Assembly: GCA_020050355.1 (NCBI GenBank)
Contig: JAGVKT010000077.1
Coordinates: 3 to 64,002 of the forward strand
From: Gammaproteobacteria bacterium
Lineage (GTDB): Bacteria > Pseudomonadota > Gammaproteobacteria > Francisellales > CACEW01
Direction of reading: 5' to 3'
DNA length: 64,000 bases
Below, in pieces: positions 13,573-63,940 of the stretch. Made by a program: the position numbers and the translations under genes. Position 1 is the first letter of the stretch. Every line of letters begins with the position of its first letter. The notes under the pieces were generated by a model. The model was not told the DNA's origin and did not search any database. It saw only the letters and a list, made by a program, of their open reading frames with translations.

Positions 13573-13760
13573 CACATCTTGAACTGTGTTTGGTATATAC
13601 CAAACGCAATTCAAGATGCGAAGATTTTTACAAAGAGTTTTGCGTCCCAATAAATTTTCCGAACCGCGCAATAGTTATTCTATTGCAAGGTGAGGAAGGT
13701 TTATTGGGGCGAAAAAAATCGCAGTAAAAAATTCGCATCTTGAACTGCGTTTGGTATATA
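13573..13760. repeat. Palindromic MITE-like element (complete, about 167 bp at 13594-13760) plus an extra abutting half-terminus (13573-13599)
   Basis: Left terminus tatataccaaacgcaattcaagatgcg (13594-13620). Right terminus cgcatcttgaactgcgtttggtatata (13734-13760). These are 27-bp inverted repeats with one mismatch. The interior is itself an imperfect palindrome. The same termini recur at 20672-20698, 45907-45933 and 55814-55839/55969-55992. Confidence 0.75.
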
Positions 13761-13789
13761 ATATCCTAATTTCTAATCTAGGCACCAGC

Positions 13790-16483
13790 ATGATCCAGCA
13801 GCTTATTACCAAGCTCATCGGCAGTCGCAATGAGCGTATTCTTAAAAATCTACAAAAAAAAGTAAATGCGATCAATGCCCTAGAACCCAGCATGCAAGCG
13901 CTCTCTGATCAAGCATTACAAGCTAAAACTTTAGAATTTAAACAACGCCTTGCAGCGAACACTGCACTCGATGATTTATTGGTAGAAGCTTTTGCAGTAG
14001 TGCGCGAAGCCAGTAAGCGCGTGTTAAACATGCGTCATTTTGATGTCCAGCTGATCGGCGGCATGGTGCTACATAGCGGTAAAATCGCTGAAATGAAAAC
14101 TGGCGAAGGTAAAACGCTAGTCGCTACCCTAGCTCTTTATCTCAATGCGCTTGCGGGTAAAGGCGTGCATCTTGTCACTGTCAATGATTATTTGGTAAAA
14201 CGTGATGCCGCGCTTATGAGTAAACTTTATAGTTTTTTAGGCATGACTACCGGCATCATCGTGCCTGGGCTCAATAATACTGAACGCAAAAGTGCCTATG
14301 CCTGTGACATTACTTATGGCACCAACAACGAATTTGGCTTTGATTATCTACGCGATAACATGGTCCTTAATAACAATGAACGCACACAGCGAGATTTATA
14401 TTTTGCAGTGGTCGATGAAGTAGATTCAATCTTAATTGACGAAGCACGCACGCCTCTAATTATTTCAGGCATCATGGAAGACAGCTCGCAACTTTATATC
14501 GACTTAAACAAGCTCATCCCTACGCTCACCAAAGGCGAAAAAGAAAATAGCACAGGCGATTATTATCTTGATGAAAAACAAAAACAAGCCTATCTCACCG
14601 AACAAGGCCATGAACGCCTTGAAGAATTATTATTAAAAGCAGGCTTATTAAAAGCCAATGAAAGCCTCTATAGCGTTAAAAATTTAAATTTAATGCATTA
14701 CTTTAATGCGGTTTTACGAGCGCATACCTTATATCATCGCGACGTTGATTACATTATTAAAGATGGTGAAGTCATTATCATCGATACCCATACAGGCCGT
14801 GCTATGCAAGGCCGCCGCTGGTCGGACGGTTTACATCAAGCAATCGAAGCAAAAGAACACGTAAAAATCCAGGCAGAAAATCAAACCCTGGCTTCAATTA
14901 CTTTTCAAAATTACTTTCGCTTATATCAAAAACTCTCAGGCATGACCGGAACAGCCGACACTGAAGCCTATGAGTTTCAACAAATCTATGATCTTGAAGT
15001 TGTGATTATTCCAACCAATAAACCCATGGTTCGTAAAGATGAAGCTGATGTTATTTATCTAAATCAAGAAGAAAAATTCAAAGCGATCATCGCCGATATC
15101 AAGGCTTGTCAAAAAACGCAACAACCGGTGTTAGTAGGCACTGCCTCAATCGAAACCTCTGAACATCTCTCAGCACTACTAGACAAAGAAAAAATTGCCC
15201 ATGAAGTATTGAATGCTAAACAACACGCCCGTGAAGCGCTGATCATTGCACAGGCAGGCAAGCCCGGAGCCGTAACCATCGCCACCAACATGGCGGGCCG
15301 AGGCACAGATATTATTCTAGGCGGTAACTACCAAAGCGAAATTGCTAGCCTAAACGAGCCCACAACTGAACAAATTGAAACCATACAAAAAGCTTGGACT
15401 GAACGCCACGAAATAGTCAAAAAAGCAGGCGGCTTAAGAATCATCGGCTCCGAACGGCATGAGTCAAGACGCATTGACAATCAATTACGCGGACGCTCCG
15501 GACGACAAGGTGATCCGGGCTCATCGCGATTTTATCTATCGCTACAAGACAATCTCATTCGAATTTTCTCAGGTGACCGCCTAGCCAATATGATGCGCAA
15601 ATTAGGCATGAGTAAAGAAGATGCCGTGCAAAGCAAACTCGTAAGCAAATCTATTGCCAATGCCCAAAAAAAAGTTGAAACGCATAATTTTGATATCCGC
15701 AAACAACTCTTACAATATGACAACGTCATCAATGATCAACGTAAAGTGATCTATGAACAAAGAAGCCAACTGCTCACTGATGAAAATGTCGCAGACATTG
15801 TTCATACCTTATATCAAGATGTTTTTAATGACGTACTGGCAAGTTATATCCCACCTGAGTCCTTAGAAGAACAATGGAATATCACTGAGCTACAAACACT
15901 GCTTCAGACCGATTTTAATTTAGTTACACCCATTAAAACCTGGCTAGAACAAGAAACCACCTTAACTGAAACACAACTCAAAGAGCGTATTATAAATCTC
16001 ACCTGGCAAAGTTATAGCGATAAAACCAAAATCAGTGAACCCCAAGCCTTAGATCATTACGAGCGCTTAATTATTTTGAATACGCTGGATATGCACTGGC
16101 GTGAACATCTATCGCGCCTAGAGCATTTACGTCAAAGCATTAATTTACGGGGCTATGCACAAAAAGATCCAAAACAAGAATATAAACGCGAAGCATTTAA
16201 TCTCTTTGCACATATGCTGGAACGCTTTAAATATGATGTAGTCAGCACCCTAGCACGCTTACAAATAAAAACTGCTGTTGAAGAAACCAACACTGAGCCA
16301 ACTCCAAAAAAATTAAATCTAAAATACCAACATCAAGAATTAGATGGCCTAGGCAATGCGGTCAAAGAAACACTAAACTCATTAGCAGCAAAGCCAAATA
16401 AAATGCCGAATGTAGGGCGCAACGATCTCTGCCCCTGCGGCTCAGGCGAAAAATTTAAACATTGTCACGGCAAATTAAACTAA
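13790..16483 (+). CDS. secA: Preprotein translocase ATPase SecA
   Basis: [19 protein letters not shown] parallels the E. coli SecA N-terminus. The DEAD-like [19 protein letters not shown] motif is present, as is the C-terminal zinc motif [14 protein letters not shown]. The ORF-track TTG start at 13751 lies inside the MITE terminus, so I call the ATG at 13790. Confidence 0.95.
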
Positions 16484-16496
16484 GGCAAGATCGTTT

Positions 16497-62060: not shown

Positions 62061-62840
62061 TTATGAACCTAATAACGCCCGCGCTTTATTGTCCACCAAC
62101 AATTTAAACAATGCTGGATTTTTATGATATAAAGGCGCAGTAATTTGAATTGCTTGGGTCTGACCTATACCGACAATAGCAGCTGCTTGGCTCGCAGCCT
62201 GACCTTCGATATTTATTAAAGCCTGATCACCTTGAGCACGCACCGCATCGGCCTTTTTAGCACCAGCAACAACAATAGCTTGCGCAATGTTAGCGGCAAG
62301 CCCTTGCATCTTTTGATATGTTGCCTGCAATTGTGTATTTGATAAAACCTGCGCTGTTAATAAAACCTGATCCACCACAATCCCTGCAGCCTTGACAGTT
62401 TGATTCTCATTGATGCTAGCAGGCAAAACTGCTCCATCTTTGGAAGCAGCAACTATCGCAGCCGTAAACAGCGGTAAAACCCTATTTTGATCACCATGCG
62501 TCACTTGCCAAAATTTTGTAATGTCTTGCACATGCCAAACTACACTCCATTGTGTCGCAAGAGTATCAGTAAAGCTAATTAAGGATACTTGTTCATTCAT
62601 CGGAATCAAATGAACCCTAACAAAAGGCCGGATGATATGAACTCCAGCAGGTAAAATCTTTGGCTGCTGGTTTTGCACAACAACAGCAGCACACATTTCA
62701 GGAACGCTAAGCAAAGAGCGATAGCCCAAAAAAATACAAAAAATAATTACAAGCATACCAATAAATATTTTATTAATTTTGATCTTGTGCATTTTCATTA
62801 TTCTGATTTTGATTGGCAGCGTTCCAACGGTCATAAGCAT
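62061..62840 (-). CDS. hflC: HflC-like SPFH-domain protein (short, divergent)
   Basis: Its position between hflK and purA is conserved synteny. It has an N-terminal TM helix ([16 protein letters not shown]) followed by an SPFH-like region. The likely start is the Met at 62798 or 62792, not 62840. Confidence 0.6.
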
Positions 62841-63813
62841 TTTGCGGCTTAGTGATTATTGGCGCTGCTACAGGTGTTGAGGTAGTTGTTGTTTGGGCCA
62901 AAGTTTTAACTGTAGGCAATACTAACAAAGGCAAATAAGCCGCCGTGGCCTCAGGATCTTTTTGATAACTAGGCAACAATGCATTAAATTCAGCGGCGTT
63001 AGTTTCAGCCTGAATAATAACACTAGCACGTTTAACATTAGCCATCTGTTGCAATGCAGCTGCCTCACGTACCGCAAGTGGGGTCATAGCGACCTTATAT
63101 GCTTCGGCATCTTTCATCATTAAATTTACTTGATTTTGCGCCCGAGTAAGCGTTTGCATAAAAGTAGTATTGAGCGCATCCGGCACGGTAATATTTTGAA
63201 CAGTGACGCTCTGCACCTGAATTCCATAATGCTGTGCATCTAAAGCAAGATGGCTCTGAATATTACTTGCAAGCACATCAACGTTGGCTTTATCTAACAA
63301 AAAATCTAAGTTTTGTTTTTGTAATACTTGTACACTCGCAGCCTGAAGATAGGCTTGCAATACTGCAGATAAATTTTGACTACTAAAAACATAAGTGCGC
63401 GGATCTGTAATTTGATAGTTCAGAAGAATATTTGCACTTACCAAATTCTGATCTTGCGTCAACATTAAGCCCGAAACAGCTACTTGCTGAGCATCAACCA
63501 AATCGACATTTAAGTGATGATCAACAAAAGGAATGGTCCAATGCGTACCTGAAAGCAAAGTTTCTTGATAAACACCCAAACGCGTTACCACCACCGCCAT
63601 ACCCGGCTTCACCGTGATAATCCCTGAAAGCAAGATCGAAACAGCAACTACAAAAGGAATGACACCCCACCAACCCCAGGTATTATCTTCATTAGTGGGA
63701 GGCTGCAAATCTTTTAAGGTAGGACGACGCTGAAATTTAAGCTTAGAAAAAATTTTTCTAAACCAAGCTTCTAAATCCGGAGGACCTGCATGAGCATGAC
63801 CAATAGGTAACAT
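62773..63813 (-). CDS. hflK: Protease modulator HflK
   Basis: A TM helix is followed by the SPFH domain (VKPGMAVVVTRLGVYQETLLSGTHWTIPFVD). The gene is upstream of hflC-purA, as in E. coli. Confidence 0.8.
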   Translation of the reverse strand: MLPIGHAHAGPPDLEAWFRKIFSKLKFQRRPTLKDLQPPTNEDNTWGWWGVIPFVVAVSILLSGIITVKPGMAVVVTRLGVYQETLLSGTHWTIPFVDHHLNVDLVDAQQVAVSGLMLTQDQNLVSANILLNYQITDPRTYVFSSQNLSAVLQAYLQAASVQVLQKQNLDFLLDKANVDVLASNIQSHLALDAQHYGIQVQSVTVQNITVPDALNTTFMQTLTRAQNQVNLMMKDAEAYKVAMTPLAVREAAALQQMANVKRASVIIQAETNAAEFNALLPSYQKDPEATAAYLPLLVLPTVKTLAQTTTTSTPVAAPIITKPQNAYDRWNAANQNQNNENAQDQN

Positions 63814-63868
63814 AGGTAAATTTGTTATTTATAGCAGGCTACATTTTAAATGCTTTAGGTGTTTTTGT

Positions 63869-63940
63869 CATTAAAATTTCACTGTTTATTCCAAAAGTGA
63901 ATGCCATGCCGTAGGGGCGTAGCTTGCTACGCTACTGTCC
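63869..63940. repeat. MITE-family fragment E
   Basis: cattaaaatttcactgtttattccaaaagtgaatgccatgccgtaggggcgtagcttgctacgc is a diverged copy of the B1-type core, upstream of hflK. Confidence 0.6.

What the first reader, a model, noticed from the sequence alone, without database searches (positions are those of the whole stretch)
13573..63940. Family of palindromic MITE-like intergenic elements with 27-bp terminal inverted repeats, at least 7 copies or fragments in 64 kb
Complete copies at 13594-13760 and 55814-55992 are bounded by inverted termini with consensus TATATACC[A/C]AACGCAnTTC[A/C]AGATGCG. Copies at 20534-20698 and 45768-45933 are about 90% identical to each other over about 165 nt and end in the same terminus. 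Core-only fragments occur at 45664-45747, 51488-51566 and 63869-63940. The shared core holds a GC-rich hairpin (GGGCGTAG-caagc-CTACGCCC) and the block gggacaaacagtgaaattttcacgtcaa. None has coding capacity, so they are non-autonomous. The high identity between A and B2 argues for recent mobility or gene conversion. All copies lie in intergenic gaps, several directly after stop codons (for example 4 nt after pckA), so they may double as terminators or RNA-stability elements.
Basis: seen in the sequence. Interest (0 to 1): 0.6.

Follow-up and report, generated by a model that had tools for sequence, protein, structure and literature searches.

The report
IS630-derived MITEs in a Legionellales-type genome
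The repeats are real: they are short, non-coding "hitch-hiker" transposons (MITEs) whose ends copy the end of an IS630-family insertion sequence common in uncultured Legionella/Coxiella-like bacteria, so this is an ordinary kind of mobile DNA, in a family I found no description of.

Summary
The window holds seven significant copies of a 27-nt terminus (0 expected by chance), two complete TIR-bounded elements, and four loci with truncated or rearranged copies.

The terminus is the right inverted repeat of a ~1.1-kb IS630/Tc1-mariner-family insertion sequence. That IS encodes a 342-aa DDE_3 transposase whose stop codon lies inside the repeat. It is intact in many Legionellales-, Coxiellaceae-, Berkiellales- and Francisellaceae-labelled MAGs. 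Elements are flanked by TA, the hallmark target duplication of this family.

The window carries no transposase, and the element interiors are unrelated to the IS.

Two types share the same ends:
- Type I (13598-13756) belongs to a MITE lineage found in at least 7 genomes, with a conserved apical hairpin AATAG-N5-CTATT.
- Type II (55817-55991 and its derivatives) has a GTAG-type REP hairpin at its centre and was found only in this contig.

They are not Coxiella burnetii QMITE2. I recovered a real QMITE2 copy and it shares no sequence with them, although it is built in a similar way. No canonical terminator is present.

Verdict: a new member of a known kind, of modest interest.

The parts
13573..13595 (-). 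Solo terminus remnant. Read on the minus strand from 13595 down it is TACCAAACACAGTTCAAGATGTG. It abuts the next element across a shared TA (13596-13597).
   Evidence: I12; E=3.9e-5. No element interior lies to its left.
13598..13756 (.). Type I MITE, complete, 159 bp. Ends are TACCAAACGCA[A/G]TTCAAGATGCGAA. TA lies on both sides (13596-97 and 13757-58). Apical hairpin is GCAATAG-TTATT-CTATTGC. It sits between the divergent yqeG-like gene and secA.
   Evidence: (I10: 35-nt arms, 91%). Fold -89.7 kcal/mol, z=-14.4. Aligns with MITEs from other MAGs.
20534..20694 (-). Type II derivative 'B'. On the minus strand: TIR, left arm, complete REP hairpin (20589-20609), then a 55-nt 'tail' in place of a right arm and TIR. 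TA at 20695-96. It begins 8 nt after the stop codon of the upstream minus-strand 101-aa gene and lies upstream of coaD.
   Evidence: D2, I2; E=1.8e-8; 92.9% to C2; 87.5% to the left half of E.
45664..45747 (-). Type II fragment 'C1': REP hairpin (45714-45734) plus right arm, with no TIR. Its right arm is 47/47 identical to that of copy E.
   Evidence: (I4 100%, I6).
45768..45929 (-). Type II derivative 'C2'. Same build as B: TIR, left arm, REP (45824-45844), tail. TA at 45930-31. It lies 121 nt after the rbfA stop. Together with C1 it forms one giant hairpin.
   Evidence: (E=3.1e-6). The fold of 45655-45935 is -138 kcal/mol, z=-14. The rbfA-gdh spacer is 561 nt here and 77 nt in relative L113.
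51451..51571 (+). Type II short variant 'D'. It has a decayed terminus TACCCATCTTACTTCAAAAGAC (TA at 51449-50), a short arm, a degenerate REP and a right arm that runs up to the pckA stop codon (51570-72). There is no right TIR.
   Evidence: D9, D10, I3; weak, E=0.71, but in register with the element. The pckA C-terminus is conserved, so there is no gene fusion.
55817..55991 (+). Type II MITE 'E', the only copy with both TIRs, 175 bp. Layout is TIR, left arm, half REP (a 19-nt deletion relative to the C1/C2 hairpin), right arm, TIR. TA on the left (55815-16) and TT on the right. It sits between divergent deoC and a GadC-like antiporter gene.
   Evidence: (I18, I1, I4). Fold -76.2 kcal/mol, z=-9.1.
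63865..63929 (-). Type II fragment 'F': right arm plus a REP with a 4-nt loop (GGGGCGTAG-CTTG-CTACGC). It lies upstream of hflK near the contig end.
   Evidence: D7 84%, I5, I8; 85.5% to C1. The same REP occurs alone in relative L116 4310-4335.

Best explanation
These are miniature inverted-repeat transposable elements derived from, and most likely moved in trans by, an IS630/Tc1-mariner-family insertion sequence. That IS is about 1.1 kb and has 27-bp TIRs beginning 5'-TACC. It encodes one 342-aa HTH+DDE_3 transposase whose last codons and stop (TTC GCA TCT TGA) lie inside the right TIR.

The transposase would recognise the two IRR-like ends, excise the element and insert it at a TA dinucleotide, which is duplicated.

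The window holds two MITE types with the same ends:
- A 159-bp 'type I' hairpin element that belongs to a lineage spread over several uncultured Legionellales-type genomes.
- A 175-bp 'type II' element whose centre is a GTAG-type REP hairpin. Most type II copies are truncated, rearranged or decayed.

Shown: identity of the ends with IS ends; TA flanks; absence of coding capacity and of a transposase in the window; interiors unrelated to the IS; a much shorter orthologous spacer in a relative.

Inferred: trans-mobilisation by a transposase elsewhere in this genome or formerly present in it; any effect on neighbouring genes. The likely effect, if any, is formation of very stable RNA hairpins in transcripts that read through the elements, not intrinsic termination.
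For: Distribution of the terminus. A public-genome scan found at least 108 stretches in 37 assemblies, almost all labelled Legionellales, Coxiellaceae, Berkiellales, Francisellaceae or Gammaproteobacteria. Many lie at contig ends, as expected for repeats.

Link to the IS. In 32 loci the terminus directly follows a transposase gene. The L010 example is 1,107 bp (4944-6050), has TA on both sides and splits a host ORF. Its protein hits DDE_3 (1.7e-34) and HTH_33. It is 43% identical to annotated IS630-family transposases.

Target duplication. 112 of 116 termini are preceded by TA. 15 of 16 complete short elements read TA|TACC...GGTA|TA.

The window itself. It has 7 significant termini, no transposase and no ORF longer than 36 aa in any element. 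Only the 34-nt terminus matches the loci.

Other support. The two ends of each MITE co-vary. The rbfA-gdh spacer is 561 nt in the window and 77 nt in syntenic relative L113.
Against: - No cognate transposase is present in the 64 kb.
- Only two of the window copies have both ends.
- Copy E has TT, not TA, at its right flank.
- Copies B and C2 share about 15 nt beyond any terminus-like stretch. Their duplication may therefore have been segmental or by gene conversion, not by transposition.
- No precise empty site could be aligned base for base, because the nearest relatives are only about 80% identical in protein.
Confidence: 0.85

Rival explanations
1. The elements are members (orthologues) of the published Coxiella burnetii MITE family QMITE2: 150-190 bp, TIRs, a GTAG REP core, the target of IS1111, mostly in 3' UTRs.
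For: The build and size are the same: TIRs, a palindromic body and a central GTAG-type REP. Three loci lie just after stop codons, as reported for QMITE2 (PMC5896051). The organism is a distant relative of Coxiella, with pckA 63% identical.
Against: A genuine full-length QMITE2 was recovered from C. burnetii (L109 7229-7403). Its direct repeat AATGTTG matches the paper's CAACATTW. Its TIR (GGGGTGCAATTAAAAGTGTAGGTT) and REP (GTAGCCCGTATGAGCGAAGCGAAATACGGG) share nothing with the window elements, and blastn at word size 7 gives only chance hits. QMITE2 has 7-11-nt variable direct repeats; these elements have TA. No IS1111 was seen here.
Confidence: 0.03
2. The type II units are basically REP/BIME-like extragenic palindromes spread by a REP-associated tyrosine transposase (RAYT). 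The IS630-like termini would be secondary or coincidental neighbours.
For: The centre is a textbook GTAG-tagged REP (GTAG GGGCGTAG-loop-CTACGCCC), in the same format as REPs listed with RAYTs in PMC2817692. The same REP occurs alone in relative L116. Four of six type II copies lack one or both TIRs.
Against: - The REP is always embedded at the apex of the same arms. The arms continue into IS630-type TIRs in E, B, C2 and D.
- There are no solo REPs in the window.
- None of the 26 window ORFs scanned matched a tyrosine-transposase family. The other ORFs of 100 aa or more were not scanned.
- Type I has the same ends and no REP.

This reading can explain where the core came from. It does not explain the element as a whole.
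Confidence: 0.1
3. The elements are primarily host-functional RNA structures (terminators, 3'-end stabilisers or sRNA genes). They would be kept by selection, not because they are mobile DNA.
For: The predicted hairpins are very stable (-76 to -138 kcal/mol, z from -9 to -14). Three loci lie 0-121 nt after stop codons. Type I keeps its hairpin and a 15-nt apex across genomes although the arms are only 47-66% identical. QMITE copies in Coxiella give rise to sRNAs (PMC5896051).
Against: - No hairpin is followed by a T-run. Terminator-like sites in the two scanned regions (13400-20900 and 45400-56100, which do not include fragment F) occur at the shuffle rate, and only one weak site touches an element.
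- Two elements sit in divergent promoter regions and one sits upstream of a gene.
- There is no Rfam family, only sub-threshold generic long-hairpin hits.
- Copies are decaying.
- No expression data are available.
Confidence: 0.1
4. They are just broken pieces (solo ends and internal deletions) of one insertion sequence, not a MITE family.
For: The ends are IS ends. A solo terminus exists at 13573-13595, and several copies are truncated.
Against: Beyond about 27-34 nt the interiors have no similarity to any of the IS copies fetched. Both ends of the window elements are of the right-IR type, whereas the IS has a clearly different left IR. The same interiors recur (type II six times in the window; type I in 7 genomes).
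Confidence: 0.05

Closest known systems
IS630-family-derived bacterial MITEs (RUP of Streptococcus pneumoniae; Correia/NEMIS elements of Neisseria)
   Same: Short (100-200 bp), non-coding and intergenic. TIRs resemble those of an IS630/Tc1-mariner-type IS, with TA target duplication and a strongly hairpin-forming transcript. PMC2817692 names Correia and RUP as IS630-derived MITEs. The TA duplication and the central host-factor site of Correia elements are from my own knowledge.
   Different: The TIR sequence (TACCCAYYRYACTTCAAGATGCGAA) and the host clade (Legionellales-type MAGs) are different. Both ends derive from the right IR, which contains the transposase stop codon. One type carries a GTAG REP at its apex and the other a conserved AATAG-N5-CTATT hairpin.
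QMITE2 of Coxiella burnetii (Wachter et al. 2018, PMC5896051)
   Same: The architecture matches: 23-29-bp TIRs, a 150-190-bp palindromic body, a GTAG REP at the centre, full-length and truncated REP-like versions side by side, and frequent location just 3' of ORFs.
   Different: There is no sequence similarity to the real QMITE2 copy recovered here. QMITE2 has 7-11-nt variable direct repeats, no known parent IS, and is the IS1111 target. The window elements have TA flanks, an identifiable IS630-family parent, and no IS1111 in view.
GTAG-type REP elements associated with RAYT transposases (PMC2817692, PMC3733652)
   Same: The type II centre is GTAG followed by an 8-bp GC-rich stem and a 4-5-nt loop. 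This unit occurs by itself in a related genome.
   Different: In the window the REP is never free-standing. It is always the apex of a longer palindrome with IS630-type ends. None of the 26 window ORFs scanned looked like a RAYT.
IS630 family insertion sequences (e.g. the annotated IS630-family transposases on enterobacterial and Vibrio plasmids)
   Same: The parent IS has the family's DDE_3 and winged-HTH domains, a size of about 1.1 kb, a single ORF, TA duplication, and 43% protein identity to annotated members.
   Different: It is a distinct, mostly uncultured lineage. There are 3,246 relatives at E<=1e-40, largely on ~1.1-kb metagenome contigs, and the 120 best-scoring hits listed carry no species name. 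The window itself has only the non-autonomous derivatives.

Membership tests
IS630/Tc1-mariner-derived MITE | Terminal inverted repeats matching the ends of an IS630-family IS | tested here: met
   The terminus is identical or near-identical to the right IR of ISs encoding DDE_3/HTH_33 transposases.
IS630/Tc1-mariner-derived MITE | TA target-site duplication | tested here: met
   112 of 116 termini are preceded by TA. 15 of 16 complete elements have TA at both flanks. Window copy E has TA on one side and TT on the other.
IS630/Tc1-mariner-derived MITE | Small, no transposase, interior unrelated to the parent IS | tested here: met
   Elements are 159-175 bp. The longest ORF is 36 aa or less. 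There is no transposase hit in the window. Only the terminus matches the loci.
IS630/Tc1-mariner-derived MITE | Multiple copies in the genome with insertion polymorphism | tested here: inconclusive
   There are 2 complete and 5 partial copies in 64 kb. One orthologous spacer is 77 nt in a relative against 561 nt here. The genome-wide count and base-precise empty sites could not be obtained.
IS630/Tc1-mariner-derived MITE | Cognate autonomous IS in the same genome (a source of transposase) | not testable with these tools
   Only this 64-kb contig of the organism is available.
QMITE2 (Coxiella burnetii) | Sequence similarity to CbsR16/QMITE2 copies | tested here: not met
   A real QMITE2 lies at L109 7229-7403. 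blastn of all window elements against it gives only chance hits.
QMITE2 (Coxiella burnetii) | 7-11-nt direct repeats of variable sequence | tested here: not met
   The flanks are TA.
QMITE2 (Coxiella burnetii) | Central GTAG REP; full-length and REP-like truncated versions | tested here: met
   This holds for type II only. It is a likeness in build, not homology.
GTAG REP / RAYT system | GTAG tetranucleotide directly 5' of a short GC-rich hairpin | tested here: met
   GTAG GGGCGTAG GCTTG CTACGCCC at 45710-45734, with equivalents in B, C2 and F.
GTAG REP / RAYT system | Many free-standing copies and an associated RAYT (Y1 transposase) gene | tested here: inconclusive
   There is no free-standing REP in the window. 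None of the 26 window ORFs scanned matched a tyrosine-transposase family; the other ORFs of 100 aa or more were not scanned. One free REP occurs in relative L116. The whole genome is not available.
Intrinsic (Rho-independent) terminator | GC-rich stem-loop followed directly by a T-run | tested here: not met
   In the two scanned regions (13400-20900 and 45400-56100, not covering fragment F), terminator-like sites occur at the shuffle rate. None coincides with a REP or element hairpin except one weak 5-bp stem in a TIR.

The most novel reading that the evidence does not exclude
The type I element may be more than decaying junk. It could be a conserved structured module that an IS630 lineage has carried through at least seven divergent intracellular-type gammaproteobacterial genomes.

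Its 15-nt apex (AATAG-N5-CTATT, with an AATAC/GTATT compensatory variant) and its long hairpin are kept, while the arms have diverged to 47-66% identity. The apex could be a binding site for the transposase or a host DNA-bending protein needed for MITE mobilisation, as the IHF site is in Correia elements. Alternatively the hairpin could be an exapted regulatory RNA.

In the same spirit, type II would show that this IS lineage can capture a REP as an alternative apex, linking the IS630 and REP worlds.
Probability: 0.15. Interest if true: 0.55.

Novelty: new member of a known kind. Interest (0 to 1): 0.3.

Why it matters
The result gives a parent transposase family, and so a mechanism, to a set of intergenic palindromes in an uncultured Legionellales/Coxiellales-type bacterium.

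It also shows that one IS630 lineage and its MITEs are spread widely through this group of mostly host-associated bacteria. The fetched loci also show that the terminus often lies at contig ends, which fits repeat-induced breaks in assemblies.

For annotation, it gives a simple signature (TA|TACCCAYYRYACTTCAAGATGCGAA) for masking these repeats. It also warns against calling every TIR+REP palindrome in this clade 'QMITE2'.

It does not reveal a new kind of system. IS630-derived MITEs with TA duplications have been known for decades.

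Tried and rejected
QMITE2 membership. I fetched the C. burnetii pckA locus and found a bona fide QMITE2 there. It has no similarity to the window elements, so this reading is rejected.

More type II copies.
- A metagenome scan with the arm pattern gave only two chance hits in an unrelated gene context.
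- The plasmid database gave no hit.
- Loci of the four nearest pckA relatives contain only one solo REP.

Viral carriage of the terminus. There were 0 hits.

Source genome. An exact look-up of the window's pckA failed twice. The cluster look-up gave no accession or taxon. The window does not overlap any fetched locus.

Known RNA families. Rfam at gathering threshold gave only three tRNAs. At E<=1 it gave only generic long-hairpin (miRNA-precursor) sub-threshold hits.

Terminator role. Consensus scans were at background.

Gene fusion of the pckA 3' end with the element. Rejected, because the C-terminus ...AGPS is conserved among homologues.

Literature.
- IS630 + MITE + Legionella gave no relevant paper.
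- IS630 + Coxiella gave only the RAYT/REP paper that names Correia and RUP as IS630-derived MITEs.
- A 12-nt piece of the terminus gave one unrelated hit.

A named IS for the parent. The 120 best transposase homologues listed carry no species or IS name.

Full report

Yes.

- Repeat detection recovers the same relationships. It finds a 139-nt direct pair (20545/45780, 94%), 103-nt inverted pairs linking 55814-55916 with both of these, a 47-nt perfect inverted pair (45663-45709 and 55908-55954), and the terminal inverted repeats of the two complete copies.
- The 28-nt 'core block' is present exactly twice.
- The GC-rich hairpin is present three times against 0.05 expected.
- A profile of the terminus gives seven significant sites in the window.
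- The two long derivatives are 92.9% identical over 155 nt.
- None of the elements holds an ORF above 36 aa.

**2. Anatomy**

The window is 40% G+C. The elements lie in these positions:

| Locus | Position relative to genes |
|---|---|
| 13598-13756 | between a yqeG-like gene and secA (divergent) |
| 20534-20694 | 8 nt after the stop of a 101-aa gene, upstream of coaD |
| 45664-45929 | 121 nt after rbfA, upstream of a large glutamate dehydrogenase gene |
| 51451-51571 | abutting the pckA stop codon |
| 55817-55991 | between divergent deoC and an amino-acid antiporter gene |
| 63865-63929 | upstream of hflK |

Two interior types share the same ends.

*Type I* (13598-13756) is a near-perfect 159-bp hairpin (-89.7 kcal/mol, z=-14.4). 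Its apex is GCAATAG-TTATT-CTATTGC.

*Type II* is best seen in 55817-55991 (-76.2 kcal/mol, z=-9.1). Its layout is TIR, left arm, REP, right arm, TIR. The arms are diverged inverted copies of each other. The centre is a GTAG-tagged REP hairpin (GTAG-GGGCGTAG-loop-CTACGCCC), half-deleted in this copy.

The other type II copies are derivatives:
- B and C2 keep one TIR, the left arm and a whole REP. They then continue into a 55-nt 'tail' that is only about 50% like a right arm.
- C1, D and F are REP plus right arm.
- D has a short left arm and a decayed TIR.
- C1 and C2 together fold into one 281-nt hairpin (-138 kcal/mol).

A 23-nt solo terminus (13573-13595) abuts type I across a shared TA.

**3. 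What the terminus is**

They come from 37 assemblies. Nearly all are MAGs labelled Legionellales, Legionellaceae, Coxiellaceae, Coxiella sp., Berkiellales, Francisellaceae or unclassified Gammaproteobacteria. A handful in Alphaproteobacteria, Chloroflexota and Bacteroidales look like chance or coding matches, as expected for a pattern of about 36 bits. Many hits lie within 150 nt of a contig end, which is typical of multicopy repeats.

Reading inward from the terminus gives two situations.

*An autonomous IS.* In 32 loci the terminus is followed by the 3' end of a transposase gene.
- The clean copy in L010 is 1,107 bp (4944-6050).
- It is flanked by TA on both sides and splits a host ORF.
- It encodes a 342-aa protein ending ...FAS*, whose stop codon TGA sits inside the right inverted repeat.
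- The protein hits Pfam DDE_3 (1.7e-34) and HTH_33 (1.7e-16).
- It is 43% identical to annotated IS630-family transposases on plasmids.
- The left IR of these ISs is recognisably different. In L010 it is TACCACTCGTCACTGAACGTGCGAA. In L032 the two IRs are 74% complementary.

*Short palindromic elements.* Elsewhere the same terminus bounds many different palindromic interiors of 88-191 bp. Sixteen complete short elements, including the two in the window, were found. Fifteen read TA|TACC...GGTA|TA. Over all exact matches, 112 of 116 termini are preceded by TA.

TA duplication, DDE_3 and about 27-bp TIRs together define the IS630/Tc1-mariner group.

The window has no trace of the transposase (best tblastn E=7.9). 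Apart from the 34-nt terminus, the window elements match nothing in the IS-bearing loci. They are therefore MITEs in the strict sense, not deleted ISs. In the window both ends are of the right-IR type.

**4. Type I is a widespread lineage**

Window type I aligns end to end with elements from other MAGs (alignment A1).
- The two ends of each element co-vary with each other: 10 of 31 consensus pairs show double changes.
- All share an apical hairpin AATAG-N5-CTATT, or AATAC-N5-GTATT as a compensatory pair.
- That motif lies 74-85 nt inside 28 of 133 termini, and nowhere else in 812 kb. About 0.6 would be expected by chance at the termini.
- The lineage is thus present in 7 genomes.
- Between genomes the interiors are only 47-66% identical. 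Each element nevertheless stays 76-83% self-complementary.

Whether this reflects selection (on a DNA or RNA hairpin, or on a protein-binding apex) or a self-correcting property of palindromes cannot be decided here.

**5. Type II appears lineage-specific**

- The arm pattern found only two chance hits in the metagenome collection.
- The plasmid database gave nothing.
- The terminus has no viral hits.

The window is essentially a whole 64,032-bp contig. Its pckA is 100% identical to one record, 80% to the nearest other record and 63% to C. burnetii. I fetched the pckA neighbourhoods of four nearest relatives.
- L113 is syntenic with the window from hflK to gdh.
- None carries a type II element.
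- The rbfA-gdh spacer is 77 nt in L113 against 561 nt in the window. The promoter-proximal part is conserved, which fits insertion in the window lineage.
- L116 has the REP alone (ctGTAGGGGCGTAGCTTGCTACGCCC) in another spacer. The REP is therefore an independent unit that type II carries at its apex.

**6. Comparison with Coxiella MITEs**

The published QMITE2 of C. burnetii has a very similar description: 150-190 bp, 23-29-bp TIRs, a GTAG REP core, truncated REP-like versions, a location 3' of ORFs, and use as the IS1111 target (PMC5896051).

I tested membership directly. The C. burnetii pckA locus (L109) contains a full-length QMITE2 at 7229-7403. Its flanking direct repeat AATGTTG is the reverse complement of the paper's CAACATTW. 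Neither its TIR nor its REP resembles the window elements, and blastn at word size 7 finds only chance matches. QMITE2 also has 7-11-nt direct repeats, not TA.

So the window family works like, and is built like, QMITE2, but it is not a member of it.

The proper family assignment is IS630-derived MITE, the class that includes RUP and Correia elements (PMC2817692). Literature searches found no description of this terminus or of IS630-type MITEs in Legionellales or Coxiellales.

**7. Function beyond mobility**

- Consensus scans of the two regions that hold all the elements except fragment F show terminator-like sites at the shuffle rate. None falls at the element hairpins, apart from one weak 5-bp stem in a TIR.
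- The REP stems are not followed by T-runs.
- Rfam has no matching family.
- The pckA C-terminus is intact.

Three of six loci are just downstream of genes. If those hairpins are transcribed, they could protect 3' ends or attract RNase III. That is inference only.

**8. Limits**

- The organism's other contigs could not be reached, so copy number and the presence of a cognate transposase are unknown.
- The public scan was truncated, so absence from named species, including C. burnetii, is not shown.
- The origin of the B/C2 'tail' is unexplained. So is the fact that B-C2 homology extends about 15 nt beyond any terminus-like stretch. It hints that this pair arose by segmental copying or gene conversion.

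**9. Verdict**

The elements are IS630-family-derived MITEs of two types, one carrying a REP. This is a new member of a known kind and of modest interest. The most interesting loose end is the conserved apex and hairpin of type I across seven genomes.

Noticed in passing
L007, L017, L018, L019, L030, L031, L035, L046, L075, L083, L086, L089, L090, L091, L102 and window 13598-13756: The apical motif AATA[G/C]-N5-[C/G]TATT lies 74-85 nt inside 28 of 133 termini and nowhere else in 812 kb. The interiors have diverged to 47-66% identity between genomes, yet each element stays about 80% self-complementary.
   Followed up: partly
L010 4942-6052: A clean 1,107-bp IS630-family copy with TA on both sides interrupts a host ORF (3697-4959 continues at 6054-6413). 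The transposase stop codon lies inside the right inverted repeat.
   Followed up: yes
L033 731-773; L009 about 1770-1811: There are ultra-short (~42 bp) palindromes made of two overlapping termini with no interior (TATACCAAACGCACTTCAAGATGCGAAGTACGACCGGTAT). These may be minimal MITEs or excision/repair products.
   Followed up: no
window 6779-8686 and 8750-11545: Two adjacent large ORFs (635 and 931 aa) have internal nucleotide repeats (37-49-nt units, some at 324-360-nt spacing) and no Pfam hit. They could be repeat-containing secreted or effector-like proteins.
   Followed up: partly
window 3871-3891: A possible decayed solo terminus (minus strand TATACCATTCGTGTTTCAAAA) lies between a tRNA gene (3716-3789) and aceE. 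The profile E-value is only 12, so it may be chance.
   Followed up: partly
window 20534-20588 and 45768-45823: The 55-nt 'tail' shared by copies B and C2 replaces the right arm and TIR. It is only about 50% like a right arm. B-C2 homology runs about 15 nt beyond any terminus-like stretch, which suggests segmental copying or gene conversion rather than transposition.
   Followed up: partly
window 51455-51457: The predicted start codon of the 121-aa ORF (51092-51457, minus strand; no confident family) lies inside the decayed terminus of element D. The ORF start may be spurious, or it may be supplied by the element.
   Followed up: no
L016, L026, L045, L055, L056, L060, L066, L070-L072, L081, L088, L092, L093, L097, L098, L101, L104, L107 (WLWT01 MAG): One large gammaproteobacterial MAG (contigs up to 4.7 Mb) holds at least 19 copies of this IS. 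Several are frameshifted or nested with a second IS630-type element and sit next to an IS4-like transposase fragment.
   Followed up: partly
L109 7229-7403 and 1-71: A full-length C. burnetii QMITE2 lies between an SNF-family transporter gene and thioredoxin, with direct repeat AATGTTG. A second related REP hairpin lies at the locus start.
   Followed up: yes
L116 4310-4335: A free-standing GTAG REP (GTAGGGGCGTAGCTTGCTACGCCC) lies between a ParA-like gene and dcd in an 80%-pckA relative. At the orthologous place in the window the two genes overlap and there is no REP.
   Followed up: yes
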